Origin: Parachlamydiales bacterium
GTDB taxonomy: Bacteria; Chlamydiota; Chlamydiia; Chlamydiales; SM23-39
NCBI GenBank assembly: GCA_019694475.1
Contig: JAIBBX010000003.1
Location: forward strand, 248,497 to 312,496
Direction: 5' to 3'
DNA: 64,000 nucleotides
A program made the position numbers and the translations under genes. The notes beneath the pieces were generated by a model. It searched no databases, had not been told where the DNA came from, and saw only the letters and a program-made list of their open reading frames with translations. Below are positions 17,291 to 55,253 of this stretch, in pieces; the first letter of the stretch is position 1, and every line of letters begins with the position of its first letter.

Positions 17291-17321
17291 ACAAGGCAAA
17301 AGCTCCTGTTCAAAAAAAAGT
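17291..17321. repeat. Direct repeat copy 1 (acaaggcaaaagctcctgttcaaaaaaaagt)
   Basis: Matches 19938..19969 with 1 substitution and 1 extra A. It lies 57 nt upstream of the pcnB start. Confidence 0.85.
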
Positions 17322-19937: not shown

Positions 19938-19969
19938 ACAAGGCAAAAGCTCCTATTCAAAAAAAAAGT
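19938..19969. repeat. Direct repeat copy 2
   Basis: acaaggcaaaagctcctattcaaaaaaaaagt, 56 nt upstream of the start of 18194..19882. Confidence 0.85.
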
Positions 19970-25642: not shown

Positions 25643-25742
25643 CGCCAGTGTATTCATCGAGCAGGCCGTTCAGTAGAACGGCCCAGAATATGATGGGCGA
25701 TGTAGATCGCTTTAACCGAAGCGAGGCCTAGGTCGGGTTCTC
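25643..25742 (-). pseudogene. Degenerate duplicate of the 3' end of the DTW-domain gene
   Basis: ~80% identical to 26821..26920. It encodes LGLASVKAIYIAHHILGRSTE, followed by a 1-nt insertion and a premature stop. Confidence 0.8.
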
Positions 25743-26786: not shown

Positions 26787-27218
26787 TTATGCAAAGGAGT
26801 TGTTCGTAAGGAAGAGATCGCGCCAGTGATAGCCATCGAGCAGGCCTTCTGTAGAACGGCCCAAAATATGATGGGCGATATAGAGCGCTTCAACAGAAGC
26901 GAGGCCTTGCTCGGGATTCGGCTCTCTGGGGTAGGCTGTTTTGAAGTGAGTTGGAAGGCTTCGTTCTTCAAGCTTGAAAGGAAGTTGATTTTCCATTACG
27001 GCCGCAAGGCGCCAAGTCCCGTCAATCAGAAGAAGTCCTCGATCTGAGTCCTCTTTTGTCAAAGGAGGCGCGCCCACTTTGAGCAGAATAAAGCCTGTAA
27101 CATCGGGTAATTGATGGATCGGATAGGTATAAAAAGCTAGATCGTCCCGCTTTTCCAAGCCTCTCAAAGAGCATTTTTTTAAATTTTCCCGCCTGTGGCG
27201 CAGTATGATTGTTTTCAT
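26787..27218 (-). CDS. DTW-domain protein (aminocarboxypropyltransferase TapT/Tsr3-like family)
   Basis: LLLIDGTWRLA (DTW motif), KKCSLRGL, and LASVEALYIAHHILG. Confidence 0.6.
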   Translation of the reverse strand: MKTIILRHRRENLKKCSLRGLEKRDDLAFYTYPIHQLPDVTGFILLKVGAPPLTKEDSDRGLLLIDGTWRLAAVMENQLPFKLEERSLPTHFKTAYPREPNPEQGLASVEALYIAHHILGRSTEGLLDGYHWRDLFLTNNSFA

Positions 27219-29125: not shown

Positions 29126-29546
29126 TTTGGATATCTGAAAATTTGGCTCCTTTGGCGCACTGTCTGGGGACGACGTGGATTTCCCAGGATGGCAAAGAAT
29201 TTTGGCGATAGGCTTCCCTGACCAATCGTTTAAACCGGTTGCGTTCGGGGGCTGAGCCGTATTTGCTGGAGGCGCTGATCCCTAAGCGCCCTTTTTTGGC
29301 TGGGCGCAAGTCGATGCAAAGAAAACGGCCTACGAGCCGTTTTCCTTCACGCATAACTTTATTGAATTCCCAGCGTTTGAGGAGGCGGGATTCTTTAGGG
29401 AAAGTTAAGCAGCCAATTTTTTTCTGCCAGCTCTGCGGCGGCGGTTGATGACTTTCCTTCCGGAGGTCGTTTTCATTCTGGCGCGGAAGCCGAATTTTTT
29501 TCTGCGGCGGGTTTTGCTTGGCTGGTATGTACGTTTCATAATTCAT
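29079..29546 (-). CDS. rnpA: RNase P protein component (start uncertain; the ORF overlaps all of rpmH out of frame)
   Basis: [18 protein letters not shown]...[14 protein letters not shown] (RNR motif). There is no ATG/GTG/TTG between the conserved core and the ATG at 29546. Confidence 0.8.
29405..29539 (-). CDS. rpmH: 50S ribosomal protein L34
   Basis: Absent from the track. Translation is [44 protein letters not shown]. Confidence 0.9.
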
Positions 29547-29624
29547 CCGATTCTATAAAATGATTTTTCTGCAAGGATATATCAATGAGATAGATATTTT
29601 CAATAAGAATAAAGAGAGAGAAAA

Positions 29625-29865
29625 GACGTCGGGCATGCTACGCGCCATAAGAAACGCAAAACGCTAAACGCAGAATGCAAAACTATGGGCTGACGCATCG
29701 GCCCCGCTGGGTCAGCGGGGGCCCCCGCGCGTCAGTGCTGAGGGGGAAGCCCCCTCGCACCCCCATTTGTGCGCGAAGCATTGGGTGCATGCAAAGGAGG
29801 GCTTCCCTCCTTATGCCCGGAACGCGGGGGCGCAGCGCCGAATGGCGCGTAGCATGCCCGGCGTC
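29625..29865. repeat. GC-rich palindromic repeat element, copy E1 (MITE/REP-like)
   Basis: 22-bp terminal inverted repeats, gacgtcgggcatgctacgcgcc / ggcgcgtagcatgcccggcgtc (21/22). The core cagtgctgagggggaagccccctcgcacccc is shared with 53757 and 54984. GC content is far above the flanks. Confidence 0.8.
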
Positions 29866-29946
29866 ATAATCTAACTTACTTTCTACCGCTTGAATAAAAA
29901 TGGCGATAGGTATATAAATATAGCCTTTGAACGTAAGGAACATTTC

Positions 29947-46227: not shown

Positions 46228-46335
46228 TGAGGATATATAGTGTGTAATTGTATATTATTTGGGAATTTATTTTAGGTTTGTATGTTATTTTATCTTTCAA
46301 GCGGCGCTCATAATACTCATCTTGAGTATGTGGTT

Positions 46336-46523
46336 CGGTCTAAGAGACTGTTAACGGATTTTGGTTTCGTCGAGTTTTCGGGATTATTTTGGCCAAATTT
46401 TGACTTTTTTTCGGGGGTCAATATACGGAAGTTGATATTAACCCCCGAAAAAAAGGTCGAAATTTGGCTCAAAAGAACCCGAAAATCGACTGAAACAAAA
46501 TCCGTTAACAGTCTCTAAGATCG
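46336..46523. mobile_element. 188-bp AT-rich imperfect palindrome (MITE-like hairpin element)
   Basis: The left arm cggtctaagagactgttaacggattttgg...tttttttcgggggtcaatat pairs with the right arm ...attaacccccgaaaaaaa...ccgttaacagtctctaagatcg at ~85% complementarity. Confidence 0.6.
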
Positions 46524-46913
46524 ATGGGAATTCCAATGAGCGGGAGATGGCCCGTTTGGCAAACGAACAGGGTTGCATACTCTTTTATCAATCACCCCGA
46601 GATCATGGCTCAATTTTCACTCCTTTCCGGGGAAGAAGCCTTTTGGATAGCGCGCAAGCATGCCGATCTCATCCGTTCTGATTGGAGAGAGATCAATGTC
46701 CAAGTAATGAGAGAGGTTTTGAGGGCAAAAATCTCGCAAAATCCGCATATCGCCGGATGGCTCGAAGCTACCGGCCTCTCTATTATTATTGAGCACACTC
46801 CTGTGAAAGGCAGAGATGCTTTTTGGGCAGATGATCATGATGGTTCTGGAAAAAATATGCTAGGGAAGCTTTGGATGGAAATTCGAGCTGAACTTTGCAA
46901 TTCGCAGAAATGA
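46524..46913 (+). CDS. NADAR (YbiA/DUF1768) domain protein, N-terminally short
   Basis: SDWREINVQVMREVLRAKISQNPHIAGWLEATG..IIEHTP..DAFWADDHDGSGKNMLGKLWMEIR aligns with the C-terminal two thirds of E. coli YbiA. Confidence 0.7.
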   Translation: MGIPMSGRWPVWQTNRVAYSFINHPEIMAQFSLLSGEEAFWIARKHADLIRSDWREINVQVMREVLRAKISQNPHIAGWLEATGLSIIIEHTPVKGRDAFWADDHDGSGKNMLGKLWMEIRAELCNSQK

Positions 46914-48164: not shown

Positions 48165-48524
48165 TTAAAAATTCAAAATCGACTTTAATTCGTTTTTGAA
48201 ATTTCTTTGGTCTGCTTCTGAAAGAAAACCTAATTTTTGAAAAATCAGTCTGTGATCTAATGTAAATATTTTGAATCTGATGATTGAAGGTGCAGGGAGC
48301 CCTGCAGTTTTAAGATCGGCAATTTGAATGTCGGACGGCCAAAGATATCTGTCTGGTTTTAAAGAAGTAATCATAGCTAAAATACTAGATCCAGTTTTTG
48401 CGTTGAAATACTTGGCTGTAGAGATCACAACCGCAGGTCTTACTTTCTCCGCATGAATGTCTGTAAAAGGGAAAGGTACTTTAACCACATCATAAAGCTC
48501 AAAGGTTCTTGTAGGCTTGTTCAT
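48165..48524 (-). CDS. mazF: MazF/PemK-family toxin (type II TA)
   Basis: LYDVVKVPFPFTD....KVRPAVVIS......ILAMITS...GLPAPSIIRFKIFTLD pattern. The track start is 48545. Confidence 0.75.
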   Translation of the reverse strand: MNKPTRTFELYDVVKVPFPFTDIHAEKVRPAVVISTAKYFNAKTGSSILAMITSLKPDRYLWPSDIQIADLKTAGLPAPSIIRFKIFTLDHRLIFQKLGFLSEADQRNFKNELKSILNF

Positions 48525-48792
48525 CTTCTTCCGATTCCCATTCATTCATTGTTTGATTTAAACTTTCGAAATACTCCACATCTAATGGATGATTCTTCCT
48601 GATCACGACTGTGTCATCAGGGAGCAATTCGTAGAGAATTTTGTCCCCTTTCTCTAAATGGAGAGCCTTACGAATCTCTTTTGGAATCGTTGCCTGATAT
48701 TTTGATGTGAGCCTAGATGCGTAACGCGATCTGACTTTGGGCGCGCTTTTTAGTTTCTGTTTTCTTTTCTTGATTCGAGACTTTGCGGACAT
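48499..48792 (-). CDS. mazE: AbrB/MazE/SpoVT-family antitoxin
   Basis: SpoVT-AbrB core SKYQATIPKEIRKALHLEKGDKILYELLPDDTVVIRK and an acidic C-terminus. It overlaps the toxin start. Confidence 0.75.
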   Translation of the reverse strand: MSAKSRIKKRKQKLKSAPKVRSRYASRLTSKYQATIPKEIRKALHLEKGDKILYELLPDDTVVIRKNHPLDVEYFESLNQTMNEWESEEDEQAYKNL

Positions 48793-53541: not shown

Positions 53542-54056
53542 GACAGTCGGGCATGCTACGCGCCCTTCGGCGCTGCGCCCCCGCTGCCCAGGCCAGGCTT
53601 CATCTCACTTTGAAAAAGCGTGTGCTCGACTCTGGGGTGTGCAAAGCACTACCCCGTCGCCCGAAACGGGCTTTCGCCTGCGCTACGTTTTTTCTTCGTG
53701 ATACGAAGCCAATGTCTGGCGCATCGGCCCCGCCGTTAGCGTGGGCCCCCGCGCGCCAGTGCTGAGGGGAGGCCCCTCGCACCCCAGCGCTGCCGCGCAT
53801 TCGCGAAGCTGGGTGGATGCAAAGGAGGGCCTCCCTCCTTGTGCCTGGAACACGGGGGGACCCCGCCAACGGCGGGGCCGTGGTCCAGCCCTTGGCTTCA
53901 GGTCACAAAGAAAAAGCGTAGCGCAGGCAAGAGCCCGCTTCGGGCGTTGGAGCTGTGCTTTGTACTGCCCCTTGCCGAGCACGCGCTTTTTCAAAGTGAA
54001 ATGAAGCCTGCTGGGCGCGGGGGCGCAGCGCGTACGCGCGTAGCACGCCCGACGTC
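53542..54056. repeat. GC-rich nested-palindromic repeat element, copy E2 (~515 bp)
   Basis: Same termini as E1 (gtcgggcatgctacgcgcc / gcgcgtagcacgcccgacgtc). Inner 33-bp arms 53596-53628 and 53976-54008 are 31/33 complementary. An E1-like core lies at 53757-53785. Confidence 0.8.
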
Positions 54057-54077
54057 ATATCTATTTTATTCCTACCT

Positions 54078-54857
54078 TTAAGGATTCGGATAATAGTTGA
54101 TGCCGTAGACCTGCTCGGTTCCGGCGATAAGATAGTAGGCGTGGGTTAGGTTGTTGATGGAGTTGTAGGTGATGTAAAGGAGCGAGCCGTTGGAAGTGAA
54201 GGATGTGACACCCGTGGTGCTGCAGAGAGAATTGGGCGTTAGGCTCACGCATTGGATGTAGGGAATAATACCGTTTGTTATGGGGGGAGTATTCGTCCCT
54301 GTCAATGAAGTTTGCATTGTGAAGTAGGACTGGGCTTTATATCTAAAATATGTTGCATTGCTCTTGATAATGGAAAATACATTCACGATGTCGGTCGCCC
54401 TTTGAGATAGATTGACTGTGTAGATGGGCAAAATACCCGTTGTCACTACTGTTAAATAGGCGCTCCCTGTCGCAAGCGTATTGTATGCTGAGAAAATCAC
54501 TTCCACTATTTGTTCAACTGGAACGACGTAAAACGTCAGGTTATTATTGCTTCCTCTGATCTGCTGCGAACCAACGATTAGAATGGTTGAGTTGGTTGTT
54601 GCCCAAACATTGCTGCTGACAACGTATCGGATGAGCTGCGGCTGGCCATTTACACCTAACGATCGCGTTTGGATGGCAATCTCTGAGTTGCCGTATTGCC
54701 CAGTTGTGAATGGTGCAGCAGAGAGAGAGGCGATCATATTGACAATGTCTTTGCCTCGGTTGGAAGGATCAATGTAGTAGATGGAGGTGCCGCTCGGAAT
54801 GTTGAGAGACTGTCCATACAAGTTTGCAAGAAATAGGAAAACCAACCAAAAGCGCAT
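54078..54857 (-). CDS. Secreted S/T/N-rich protein with an internal two-domain duplication (unknown family)
   Basis: Signal peptide MRFWLVFLFLANLYGQS (ATG at 54857; the track start is 54935). SIYYIDPSNRGKDIVNMIASL is repeated as PIYTVNLSQRATDIVNVFSII. Confidence 0.6.
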   Translation of the reverse strand: MRFWLVFLFLANLYGQSLNIPSGTSIYYIDPSNRGKDIVNMIASLSAAPFTTGQYGNSEIAIQTRSLGVNGQPQLIRYVVSSNVWATTNSTILIVGSQQIRGSNNNLTFYVVPVEQIVEVIFSAYNTLATGSAYLTVVTTGILPIYTVNLSQRATDIVNVFSIIKSNATYFRYKAQSYFTMQTSLTGTNTPPITNGIIPYIQCVSLTPNSLCSTTGVTSFTSNGSLLYITYNSINNLTHAYYLIAGTEQVYGINYYPNP

Positions 54858-54936: not shown

Positions 54937-55253
54937 AAGGGCTCACACGTCAGTCCCGCTGGTCAGCGAGTCCCACTGCGTGTCAGTGCTAAGGGGAGGC
55001 CCCTCGCACCCCAAAACGCTTCGCGTTCACAAGCTTTCTTGTGTTCCGACAACTTTCATTTTTCTTCGAAAAAAGAGAAGTCGTTGTGAGGGCCCCACGC
55101 CTAACGGCGAGTAAAGGGGGGAGTCCGAGAGGGGGCAAGCCAGCCCCCCTTCGCTAGTGGGGTGGATAGGAAGGTGGGCTTCCCTTCCTTATGTTCTGGC
55201 ACACGAGGGTGCAAGCCCTTAGTTTTGCATTTTGCATTCTGCATTTTGCGTTT
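54937..55253. repeat. GC-rich palindromic repeat element, copy E3, with a heptanucleotide array
   Basis: Ends aagggctcacacg / cgagggtgcaagccctt. Core at 54984-55012. A (TTTTGCA)-like x4 array at 55223-55253 is the reverse complement of the E1 array at 29652-29686. Confidence 0.75.

What the first reader, a model, noticed from the sequence alone, without database searches (positions are those of the whole stretch)
29625..29865. GC-rich palindromic repeat element family (copy E1) in the rnpA/rpmJ divergent intergenic region
- This is a 241-bp island of very high GC in a moderate-GC genome, bounded by 22-bp terminal inverted repeats (21/22 match).
- It contains a central hairpin gaggggg-aa-gccccctc.
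- The conserved core CAGTGCT(G/A)AGGGGA(A)GCCCCTCGCACCCC is found again at 53757 and 54984.
- A second hairpin sequesters a perfect SD (AAGGAGGG-ctt-CCCTCCTT, 29794-29812) and is followed immediately by ATG. The equivalent modules at 53822-53840 (then GTG) and ~55169-55190 (then ATG) are conserved.
- The element produces several spurious ORFs in the track.
- It looks like a non-autonomous MITE/REP/PATE-like element or a structured RNA family. I do not recognise it.
Basis: seen in the sequence. Interest (0 to 1): 0.6.

Follow-up and report, generated by a model that had tools for sequence, protein, structure and literature searches.

The report
Decayed foldback palindromic repeat element
The GC-rich island between rpmH and rpmJ is a real but worn-down copy of a previously undescribed family of long hairpin-forming, non-coding "jumping DNA" repeats found only in a small group of uncultured environmental chlamydiae; it is most likely genomic parasite debris, not a regulatory RNA.

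Summary
E1 (29625-29865) has 65.6% GC against 45.8% for the window, 24-nt terminal inverted repeats (23/24), and shares modules with E2 (53544-54059) and E3 (54940-55253).

The 'perfect SD hairpin + ATG' is not a translation signal. It is the reverse-complement partner arm of the 'conserved core'. Each copy is an inverted pair of one ~80-nt module inside a long palindrome.

The window comes from a Parachlamydiales MAG (locus tags K1X28_). The same family occurs in at least three other related MAGs:
- REEB52 has at least 5 copies, 91-97% alike.
- GCA_964424735.1 has a 607-bp copy.
- GCA_975249365.1 has a copy with 216-nt arms, 95% complementary.

Orthologous sites are filled in one genome and empty in another. 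Between genomes the arms change together (24 both-arm changes against 5 one-arm). The window's copies are degenerate or internally deleted.

There is no Rfam hit, no strand bias in G·U-compatible mismatches, no consistent orientation to genes, no conserved ORF, and no transposase nearby.

Verdict: a new family of MITE-like foldback repeats, fossil in this genome, with the mobilising enzyme unknown. This is a new member of a known kind, of moderate interest.

The parts
29605..29624 (.). Purine-rich tail abutting the left end of E1 (AAGAATAAAGAGAGAGAAAA). The right flank, 29866-29887, is its pyrimidine-rich, degenerate mirror.
   Evidence: purine-run scan. The same polypurine-left / polypyrimidine-right tails (20-100 nt) flank every REEB52 copy.
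29625..29648 (.). E1 left terminal inverted repeat, GACGTCGGGCATGCTACGCGCCAT.
   Evidence: I11 (24 nt, 96%). The same terminus is found in E2, REEB52, L113 and L001.
29652..29691 (+). Module B: about 5 degenerate heptad repeats (AAAYGCA). It is found again, inverted, at the right end of E3 (55214-55253).
   Evidence: I4/I16 (40 nt, 85%); sequence.
29696..29776 (+). Local hairpin C is at 29700-29723 and local hairpin D (GAGGGGG-AAG-CCCCCTC) at 29740-29756.
   Evidence: nhmmer E=1.2e-12. DNA fold z=-4.3.
29771..29833 (-). It is truncated and joined directly to the G segment.
   Evidence: nhmmer hit on the - strand, E=2e-7.
29842..29865 (.). E1 right terminal inverted repeat. Together with 29815-29841 (segment G) it is 97% identical to the inverted left end of E2.
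   Evidence: I3, I11.
53544..54059 (.). E2: a near-complete but degenerate copy. Left arm 53546-53760, right arm 53841-54053. CD type 1 at 53722-53790 (+) and CD type 2 at 53801-53881 (-). It lies between the convergent GT2 gene and the 285-aa hypothetical gene.
   Evidence: I1, I14; RNA fold z=-24; arm profile E=1e-59 to 1e-62.
54940..55253 (.). E3: a partial copy without outer arms. CD type 1 at 54948-55026 (+), degenerate CD type 2 at 55157-55210 (-), module B' at 55214-55253. It lies between the hypothetical gene and DoxX.
   Evidence: (fold z only -2.4).
54078..54857 (-). Lineage-specific 259/285-aa secreted hypothetical gene bracketed by E2 and E3. The whole E2-gene-E3 block is absent from relatives.
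   Evidence: no Pfam. L016 has DoxX abutting GT2. L001 has only a 100-bp mini-palindrome there. The L111 gene at this site is unrelated.

Best explanation
E1 is a worn, internally deleted, mosaic copy of a lineage-restricted family of long palindromic ('foldback'), non-coding, MITE-like mobile DNA elements.

Architecture (shown). A full member is 500-970 bp and has these parts, from the outside in:
- a purine-rich tail;
- the terminus (A)TA-GACGTCGGGCATGCTACGCGC;
- segment G (GCGCTGCGCCCCCGC);
- a ~117-nt self-palindromic segment H;
- an ~80-nt CD module carrying two small GC hairpins;
- a variable loop;
- the reverse complement of all of this, ending in a pyrimidine-rich tail.

They come in two sequence types that usually occur as a heterotypic pair.

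Behaviour (shown):
- The family proliferated within genomes.
- Copies sit in intergenic DNA next to ordinary genes.
- Copies are present or absent at orthologous sites.
- Arms stay complementary across lineages.
- Once inserted, copies decay by point mutation and internal deletion.

Mechanism (inferred). Copies are mobilised in trans by an unidentified transposase that recognises the conserved termini and/or the hairpins. Hairpin-forming ability is needed for, or regenerated by, propagation.

In this genome (inferred). The family is fossil. E1 sits passively between the divergent rpmH and rpmJ promoters. Its main effects are spurious ORFs. For E2-type copies between convergent genes, an incidental bidirectional-terminator-like hairpin with an A-rich left flank and a T-rich right flank is also possible.
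For: Repeat family in the window:
- Three copies share the core, the TIRs and the modules.
- CD-profile nhmmer hits both orientations in every copy.
- A fourth copy in the same MAG, on another contig, is implied by MBX7066307.1.

Other genomes:
- REEB52 has at least 5 copies, found with the end pattern.
- L001 carries a 607-bp copy.
- L113 carries a copy with 216-nt arms, 95% complementary, DNA fold z=-39.
- L115 carries a copy upstream of rpmH.

Mobility and turnover:
- REEB52 arms are 91-97% identical between loci, while orthologous PcrA between genomes is only 83-85% identical.
- The L9|epimerase spacer is filled in L001 but is 68 bp in the window and 73 bp in L111.
- DoxX|GT2 has no spacer in L016 and a hairpin of unrelated sequence in a 65-bp spacer in L112, against 1.74 kb in the window.
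- L114 and L115 (PcrA 97% identical) differ by a deletion that leaves a 57-bp remnant.

Concerted arms:
- L113 against the REEB52 consensus gives 173 identical columns, 24 identical changes in both arms and 5 one-arm changes.
- Local hairpins C and D show double-sided compensatory changes in 6 of 19 pairs.

Fossil state in the window:
- E2 against REEB52 shows 9 both-arm and 51 one-arm changes.
- E1 and E3 lack whole segments.

Non-coding and non-autonomous:
- There is no Pfam domain in the internal ORFs and no transposase in the ORFs tested from the window or among genes flanking REEB52 copies.

Not RNA:
- There is no Rfam hit, and G·U-type against A·C-type arm mismatches number 33 and 36.
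Against: - No cognate transposase or autonomous copy with the same termini was found. Only about 64 kb of the host genome and about 50 kb of REEB52 could be inspected.
- Target-site duplications could not be demonstrated. The bases next to GACGTC (TA or AT) are themselves part of the palindrome, and no sufficiently close empty site was available.
- The rpmH-upstream site is occupied in the window, REEB52, L115 and (as a remnant) L114. This could mean old vertical inheritance and retention, and possibly function, rather than repeated insertion.
- Compensatory changes in local hairpins hint at a structural constraint beyond TIR recognition. They could also arise from quasi-palindrome template-switch mutation.
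- Copy numbers seen are low (a handful per genome).
Confidence: 0.72

Rival explanations
1. The elements encode a structured RNA: a long hairpin sRNA or RNase III substrate, or a cis-regulatory leader whose second hairpin masks a Shine-Dalgarno sequence and start codon.
For: - Folds are very stable (E1 z=-8, E2 z=-24).
- Compensatory changes occur in local hairpins C and D.
- AAGGAGG followed by ATG or GTG is present in E1 and E2.
- High GC in a moderate-GC genome is typical of structured RNAs.
Against: - There is no Rfam family, even at E<=10, apart from generic miRNA-hairpin noise.
- The SD hairpin is the reverse complement of the core arm. It becomes GAAGGGGG in REEB52 and AGGAAGGTGGG, with a poor stem, in E3.
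- The peptides after the start codon are not conserved.
- All three cores are on the + strand regardless of neighbours. E1 lies between divergent genes, E2 between convergent genes, and E3 is antisense to its neighbours.
- There is no G·U against A·C strand asymmetry.
- Length varies from 57 to 970 bp at the same or different loci.
- Window copies are decaying.
Confidence: 0.07
2. The elements are REPIN/REP-like units moved as single-stranded DNA by a RAYT or IS200/IS605-type HUH tyrosine transposase, which recognises the small GC hairpins (C, D) and a CGTC tag.
For: - CGTC is present in the terminal GACGTC.
- Inverted doublets of hairpin-bearing modules (CD...D'C') resemble REP doublets.
- Local hairpins are maintained by compensatory change.
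- CGTC-tagged REPs with no known transposase are described in PMC3733652.
Against: - REPs are 20-40 bp with an unpaired tag and 8-9 bp stems (PMC3733652). Here the CGTC lies inside a 24-nt paired TIR and the elements are 240-970 bp.
- IS200/IS605-type elements lack TIRs.
- No Y1 transposase was found in the ORFs tested from the window or among those next to REEB52 copies.
- Only a handful of copies were seen, not hundreds.
Confidence: 0.1
3. The elements are host-retained structural DNA or transcription elements, such as bidirectional intrinsic terminators or insulators built from GC hairpins with A-rich and T-rich flanks. They spread by recombination or duplication rather than transposition and are kept because they are useful.
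For: - The purine/A-rich left tail and pyrimidine/T-rich right tail give a hairpin plus U-tract on both strands.
- E2, the L020 copy and the L113 copy lie between convergent genes.
- The DoxX|GT2 spacer holds terminator-like palindromes in L001 and L112.
- The rpmH-upstream site is occupied in four genomes.
Against: - E1 and the L021 copy lie between divergent genes, where termination is irrelevant.
- Sizes and contents at one site differ enormously, from 57 bp to about 630 bp.
- L016 does without any spacer.
- Window copies accumulate one-arm mutations and deletions.
- Near-identical copies at unrelated loci in REEB52 need a dispersal mechanism.
Confidence: 0.1

Closest known systems
Bacterial MITEs, e.g. 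Neisseria Correia elements (CREE/NEMIS)
   Same: Both are non-coding, have terminal inverted repeats and are dispersed in intergenic DNA. Both fold into a long hairpin and show presence/absence polymorphism. Both have termini starting ...TATAG, a possible TA at the junction, and no cognate transposase known. (Correia properties are from my own knowledge.)
   Different: - Correia elements are 100-155 bp with 26-bp TIRs and a unique interior.
- Here the whole 500-970 bp element is a nested palindrome with 200+ nt arms, GC-rich, and with low-complexity purine/pyrimidine tails.
- There is no sequence similarity beyond TATAG.
- No TSD was shown.
REPINs / REP-BIME elements with RAYT transposases; CGTC-tagged REPs (PMC3733652)
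   Same: Both are inverted doublets of small GC-rich hairpins, mosaic and modular in composition, and extragenic. Both have a CGTC motif at the ends.
   Different: - The REP unit is 20-40 bp, with the tag unpaired.
- REPs occur in hundreds of copies, with a RAYT gene flanked by REPs.
- None of these features was met or found here.
Eukaryotic Foldback (FB) transposons
   Same: In both, very long inverted arms make up most of the element, the arms are built from sub-repeats, the loop is variable and can carry extra DNA (the L020 copy has a 107-aa ORF), and internal deletions are frequent. (From my own knowledge.)
   Different: FB elements are eukaryotic, and their arms are made of tandem repeats. 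There is no evidence of relatedness, and the mechanism here is unknown.
Rickettsia palindromic elements (RPE) and other repeats of obligate intracellular bacteria
   Same: Both are lineage-restricted palindromic repeats in an intracellular bacterial clade, and both decay in situ.
   Different: RPEs are 100-150 bp and often insert in-frame into genes. All copies seen here are intergenic.

Membership tests
MITE (miniature inverted-repeat transposable element) | Terminal inverted repeats | tested here: met
   - E1 has 24 nt with 23/24 complementary (I11).
- The same terminus is present in E2, REEB52, L113 and L001.
MITE (miniature inverted-repeat transposable element) | Small and non-coding, with no transposase inside | tested here: met
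   - Copies are 241-632 bp with only non-conserved spurious ORFs.
- There is no Pfam hit.
- One 970-bp REEB52 copy carries an unrelated 107-aa ORF in its loop.
MITE (miniature inverted-repeat transposable element) | Multiple dispersed copies per genome, with insertion polymorphism between relatives | tested here: met
   - There are 3 copies in the window and 1 elsewhere in the MAG.
- REEB52 has at least 5 copies.
- Filled and empty sites are seen at L9|epimerase and DoxX|GT2.
MITE (miniature inverted-repeat transposable element) | Target-site duplication flanking each copy | tested here: inconclusive
   The flanks are mostly ..ATA|GACGTC...GACGTC|TAT... TA is palindromic and the flanks continue the inverted symmetry. 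No close empty site was available to define the junctions.
MITE (miniature inverted-repeat transposable element) | Cognate autonomous IS with the same TIRs | not testable with these tools
   - The whole host genome is not retrievable.
- No transposase was found in the ORFs tested from the window or in the REEB52 flanks.
- There are no plasmid, phage or viral matches.
REP / REPIN (RAYT-associated) | A 20-40 bp imperfect palindrome with an unpaired GTAG or CGTC tag | tested here: not met
   The elements are 240-970 bp, and the CGTC lies inside the paired GACGTC of the TIR. The definition is taken from PMC3733652.
REP / REPIN (RAYT-associated) | RAYT (Y1 HUH transposase) gene in the genome, flanked by the repeats | not testable with these tools
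   None was found among the ORFs examined in the window or in the REEB52 flanks.
PATE / IS200-IS605 derivatives | No TIRs, with distinct subterminal LE/RE hairpins | tested here: not met
   Long perfect-type TIRs are present, and the whole element is a palindrome.
Known structured RNA family (Rfam) | Covariance-model match at or near the gathering score | tested here: not met
   The gathering-threshold scan returns only tRNA-Gln. The E-value scans return only far-sub-threshold miRNA-hairpin hits.
Structured RNA (general) | Strand-specific structure conservation (G·U tolerated on one strand) and consistent orientation to genes | tested here: not met
   - G·U-type and A·C-type mismatches number 33 and 36 across five copies.
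- Copies occur in divergent, convergent and tandem gene contexts.
Bidirectional intrinsic terminator | GC-rich hairpin flanked by an A-tract upstream and a T-tract downstream, between convergent genes | tested here: inconclusive
   - Purine and pyrimidine tails are present.
- E2, L020 and L113 lie between convergent genes, but E1 and L021 lie between divergent genes.
- The terminator scan does not call such long stems.

The most novel reading that the evidence does not exclude
The family could be a new type of bacterial foldback transposon. Its propagation would depend on nested single-strand hairpins: H, C and D, the last occurring as a conserved heterotypic type-1/type-2 pair that gives the palindrome a polarity. 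Its two arms would be regenerated from one another at each cycle, which would explain the 24:5 excess of both-arm changes. It would also be able to carry or bracket accessory genes, such as the 107-aa ORF in the loop of the L020 copy and the E2-gene-E3 block in the window. On this reading it would be a gene-shuffling vehicle in environmental chlamydiae, using an as-yet-unknown enzyme.
Probability: 0.1. Interest if true: 0.65.

Novelty: new member of a known kind. Interest (0 to 1): 0.35.

Why it matters
Practical value:
- These elements generate false gene calls. At least two are already in GenBank as hypothetical proteins.
- They probably break short-read assemblies of chlamydial MAGs. The L115 contig ends inside one.

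Biological value:
- My searches of the held paper library found no published description of a dispersed palindromic repeat family in Chlamydiota.
- The copies provide markers of genome turnover in this clade: filled and empty sites, and rapid deletion decay.
- They offer a tractable case of how very long near-perfect palindromes persist and evolve in concert in a bacterial genome.

If a dedicated mobilising enzyme or cargo function were found, the interest would rise. As it stands, the finding is an ordinary kind of selfish DNA in an unusual host lineage.

Tried and rejected
- Core-pattern scan of 185,579 species genomes: 0 hits. The core is too lineage-specific for this to say more.
- Core scan of metagenomes: 12 hits. 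Eleven belong to one unrelated soil non-coding family that shares only the 26-nt pattern, with no nhmmer similarity to the CD profile at E<=10 and no Rfam hit. One is an actinobacterial hairpin. I rejected all 12 as chance matches, since about 2 independent hits are expected for a pattern of this information content (my estimate).
- End-pattern genome scan: 94 loci, of which about 87 are chance matches in high-GC genomes. Only REEB52 and CAYRJU01 are real.
- Plasmid, phage and IMG/VR searches found nothing.
- SD-sequestration or leader-peptide idea: rejected (see the RNA rival).
- Homology of the bracketed 285-aa gene to the gene at the same site in L111: none.
- Transposase hunt with Pfam in 20 window ORFs and 10 REEB52 flanking ORFs: none found.
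- Retrieving the second copy in the host MAG (P0122): the DNA is not on record.
- Exact insertion boundaries from L002, L114 and the window alignment: the spacers are too diverged.
- Literature searches for a described chlamydial repeat family: nothing relevant found.

Full report
**The observation.** The region 29625-29865 lies between rpmH and rpmJ. rpmH (29405-29539, minus strand) sits within the long rnpA-frame ORF, and rpmJ-rpsN (from 29948) is on the plus strand.
- E1 has 65.6% GC against 45.8% for the window. Only 0.25% of 241-nt windows reach that value, and all of them lie in this element or its relative E2.
- It is bounded by 24-nt inverted repeats, 23/24 complementary (I11).
- The core pattern TGCTRAGGGG(3-6)CCCCTCGCACC occurs three times, at 29736, 53760 and 54987, all on the plus strand, with none in 100 shuffles.
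- The terminal 15-mer GGGCATGCTACGCGC occurs four times, at both ends of E1 and both ends of E2.
- The AAGGAGGGCYTCCCTCCTT hairpin is exact in E1 and E2 and degenerate in E3.

**Anatomy.** E2 (53544-54059) is a 516-bp copy with the same termini and 137-nt inner inverted arms (I1). E3 (54940-55253) has no outer arms.
- A profile built from the ~80-nt 'core' region (CD module: small hairpin C, then hairpin D) hits every copy twice, once on each strand. The hits are 29696-29776 (+) and 29833-29771 (-); 53722-53790 (+) and 53881-53801 (-); 54948-55026 (+) and 55210-55157 (-).
- The 'SD-sequestering hairpin followed by ATG' is therefore the reverse-complement partner of the 'conserved core', diverged into a second sequence type. 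It is not a separate functional module.
- E1 is a mosaic. Its left arm is TIR + a heptad-repeat module B + CD. Its right arm is a truncated CD' joined directly to segment G + TIR (I3/I4, 34, 49).
- E1 and E2 fold into very stable long hairpins (z=-8 and z=-24). E3 barely does (z=-2.4).

**Source and relatives.** GlyRS and RnpA searches place the window in an uncultured Parachlamydiales lineage.
- The RnpA search returns a 100% identical hit, annotated as 'MAG: Parachlamydiales bacterium', on a 341-kb contig.
- A spurious ORF inside E2, on that same 341-kb contig, is GenBank MBX7066933.1 (locus tag K1X28_06860).
- The genome's DNA itself is not in the searchable collections.
- A near-identical 47-aa spurious ORF (MBX7066307.1) on another contig of the same MAG implies a fourth copy.

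**The family elsewhere.** A scan of one genome per species with the end pattern CGGGCRTGCT(9-17)TGCGCCCCMGC gave 94 loci. Nearly all are chance matches in high-GC genomes. Seven are real: six are in 'Verrucomicrobia bacterium REEB52' (about 50% GC, PcrA 85% identical to the window's), and one is in GCA_964424735.1.
- REEB52 holds at least five copies (L020, L021/L052, L030, L045, L072) plus a solo degenerate arm.
- Its arms are 91-97% identical between loci and 89-96% self-complementary.
- GCA_964424735.1 has a 607-bp copy between an epimerase gene and rplI.
- Searching the protein database with translated arm ORFs found a further genome, GCA_975249365.1. Its 590-bp copy has 216-nt arms that are 95% complementary, with a DNA fold of -351 kcal/mol and z=-39.
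- An exhaustive search of 1.84 billion representative proteins found only two further arm-derived ORFs, so the family is rare and narrow.

**Mobility and turnover.**
- The L9|epimerase spacer holds the element in GCA_964424735.1. It is 68 bp in the window and 73 bp in L111.
- The DoxX|GT2 spacer holds E2 + a 285-aa hypothetical gene + E3 (1.74 kb) in the window. In L001 it holds a 100-bp mini-palindrome with related ends (ATGTCGGGG...). In L112 it holds an unrelated terminator-like hairpin, and in L016 it holds nothing.
- The site upstream of rpmH is occupied in the window (E1, 241 bp), in REEB52 (about 630 bp plus tails), in L115 (at least 122 bp, with the contig ending inside it) and in L114 (a 57-bp remnant). 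L114 and L115 are 97% identical in PcrA. L002 lacks a recognisable copy.
- Copies in REEB52 are much more alike than the host genes of the different genomes. This requires within-genome proliferation.

**Evolution of the palindrome.**
- Comparing the L113 copy with the REEB52 consensus gives 173 identical arm columns. In 24 columns both arms carry the same change, and in only 5 does one arm alone differ.
- The arms therefore evolve in concert. Either selection on propagating copies or the copying mechanism itself keeps them complementary.
- By contrast, the window's E2 has 9 both-arm and 51 one-arm differences. It is an old, unconstrained copy.
- Local hairpins C and D keep pairing through double-sided changes, for example CCCGCTG/CAGCGGG, CCCATC/GATGGG and CCCACT/AGTGGG. 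Six of 19 pairs show this.
- This could reflect use of single-strand hairpins. It could also reflect quasi-palindrome template-switch mutation (from my own knowledge).
- The arm segment H (~117 nt) is itself a palindrome, so the elements are palindromes within palindromes.

**Tests of the RNA reading.**
- Rfam gives nothing except sub-threshold miRNA-precursor matches that merely reflect a long hairpin.
- Arm mismatches compatible with G·U on the plus strand (33) equal those compatible on the minus strand (36).
- The elements sit between divergent (E1, L021), convergent (E2, L020, L113) and tandem (E3, L030, L072, L001) genes.
- The peptides following the ATG/GTG differ in sequence and frame.
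- The rpmH promoter-like site (29603-29574) lies outside E1. By eye, a TTGAAT-17-TATAAA site for rpmJ also lies outside it (29889-29917).

**Flanks.**
- In every REEB52 copy the terminus ATA-GACGTC is preceded by a 20-100-nt polypurine tract, including a (GAGAA)n run. The other end is followed by the mirror polypyrimidine tract. These are the longest such tracts in those loci.
- E1 and E2 have shorter purine-rich flanks. The L113 copy has AT-rich flanks instead.
- The origin of the tails is unexplained.
- They make each strand read 'A/G-rich tract, GC hairpin, T/C-rich tract'. That is terminator-like in both directions.

**What is missing.** No transposase was found among 20 window ORFs or 10 genes flanking REEB52 copies. 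No target-site duplication could be established. The literature searches found no description of such a family in Chlamydiota. The CGTC-tagged REPs of PMC3733652 are 20-40-bp units with an unpaired tag and do not fit.

**Conclusion.**
- E1 is a fossil, internally deleted member of a new, lineage-restricted family of long foldback, non-coding, MITE-like repeats.
- The SD-sequestration and structured-RNA half is not supported.
- The kind of element is known and the family is new.
- The unusual points are the very long nested palindromes with concerted arms, the low-complexity tails, and a loop that can hold a gene. They make it moderately interesting.

Noticed in passing
window 46335-46524 (and ORF 46524-46913): A separate AT-rich 190-bp palindrome (90-nt arms, 76% complementary, 10-nt loop) directly abuts a 5'-truncated NADAR-domain ORF (Pfam profile positions 66-162 of 163). 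It may be a second, unrelated palindromic insertion that disrupted the gene (I2, 30, 52).
   Followed up: partly
L003-L013 (soil metagenome contigs), e.g. L006:740-1130: Eleven soil contigs share a conserved ~300-nt non-coding block ending in TGCTAAGGGGCTCTGCCCCTCGCACCCCGAAGTCAAAAGC, upstream of small phage-like genes or an SNF2-type helicase. There is no Rfam hit. It is unrelated to the chlamydial family beyond the searched pattern. It could be an undescribed RNA.
   Followed up: partly
L020:1410-1733 and L020:958-1060 (REEB52): One 970-bp copy carries a 107-aa ORF with its own SD-like sequence in the loop of the palindrome (no Pfam match). Its left tail is a (GAGAA)n microsatellite of about 100 nt.
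   Followed up: partly
window 53906-54046 (-): GenBank annotates a 47-aa ORF lying entirely inside E2 as a hypothetical protein (MBX7066933.1, K1X28_06860). A sister ORF (MBX7066307.1) marks another copy in the same MAG. Both are spurious gene calls.
   Followed up: yes
L114:2181-2237 versus L115:1-122: Two Logan assemblies with 97% identical PcrA differ upstream of rpmH. One keeps a CD-bearing element, and its contig ends inside that element. The other keeps only a 57-bp GC-rich remnant. This fits fast deletion of palindromes and assembly breakage at these repeats.
   Followed up: yes
L001:9225-9330 and L112:8945-9000: The convergent DoxX|GT2 spacer carries a different palindrome in different genomes. 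L001 has a 100-bp mini-palindrome with ATGTCGGGG ends and A-rich/T-rich flanks. L112 has an A-tract/hairpin/T-tract bidirectional-terminator-like hairpin.
   Followed up: partly
window 17291-17319 and 19938-19966: A 29-nt direct repeat, 97% identical (ACAAGGCAAAAGCTCCTRTTCAAAAAAAA), occurs in two different intergenic spacers (D18).
   Followed up: no
window 25669-25737 and 26847-26915: A 69-nt direct repeat, 88% identical, lies near or within the genes upstream of pcrA. It may be a partial gene duplication (D2).
   Followed up: no
window 48165-48545 (-): A MazF/PemK-type toxin gene lies in a block of accessory genes near the FkbM methyltransferase and the truncated NADAR gene. This suggests a variable region.
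   Followed up: no
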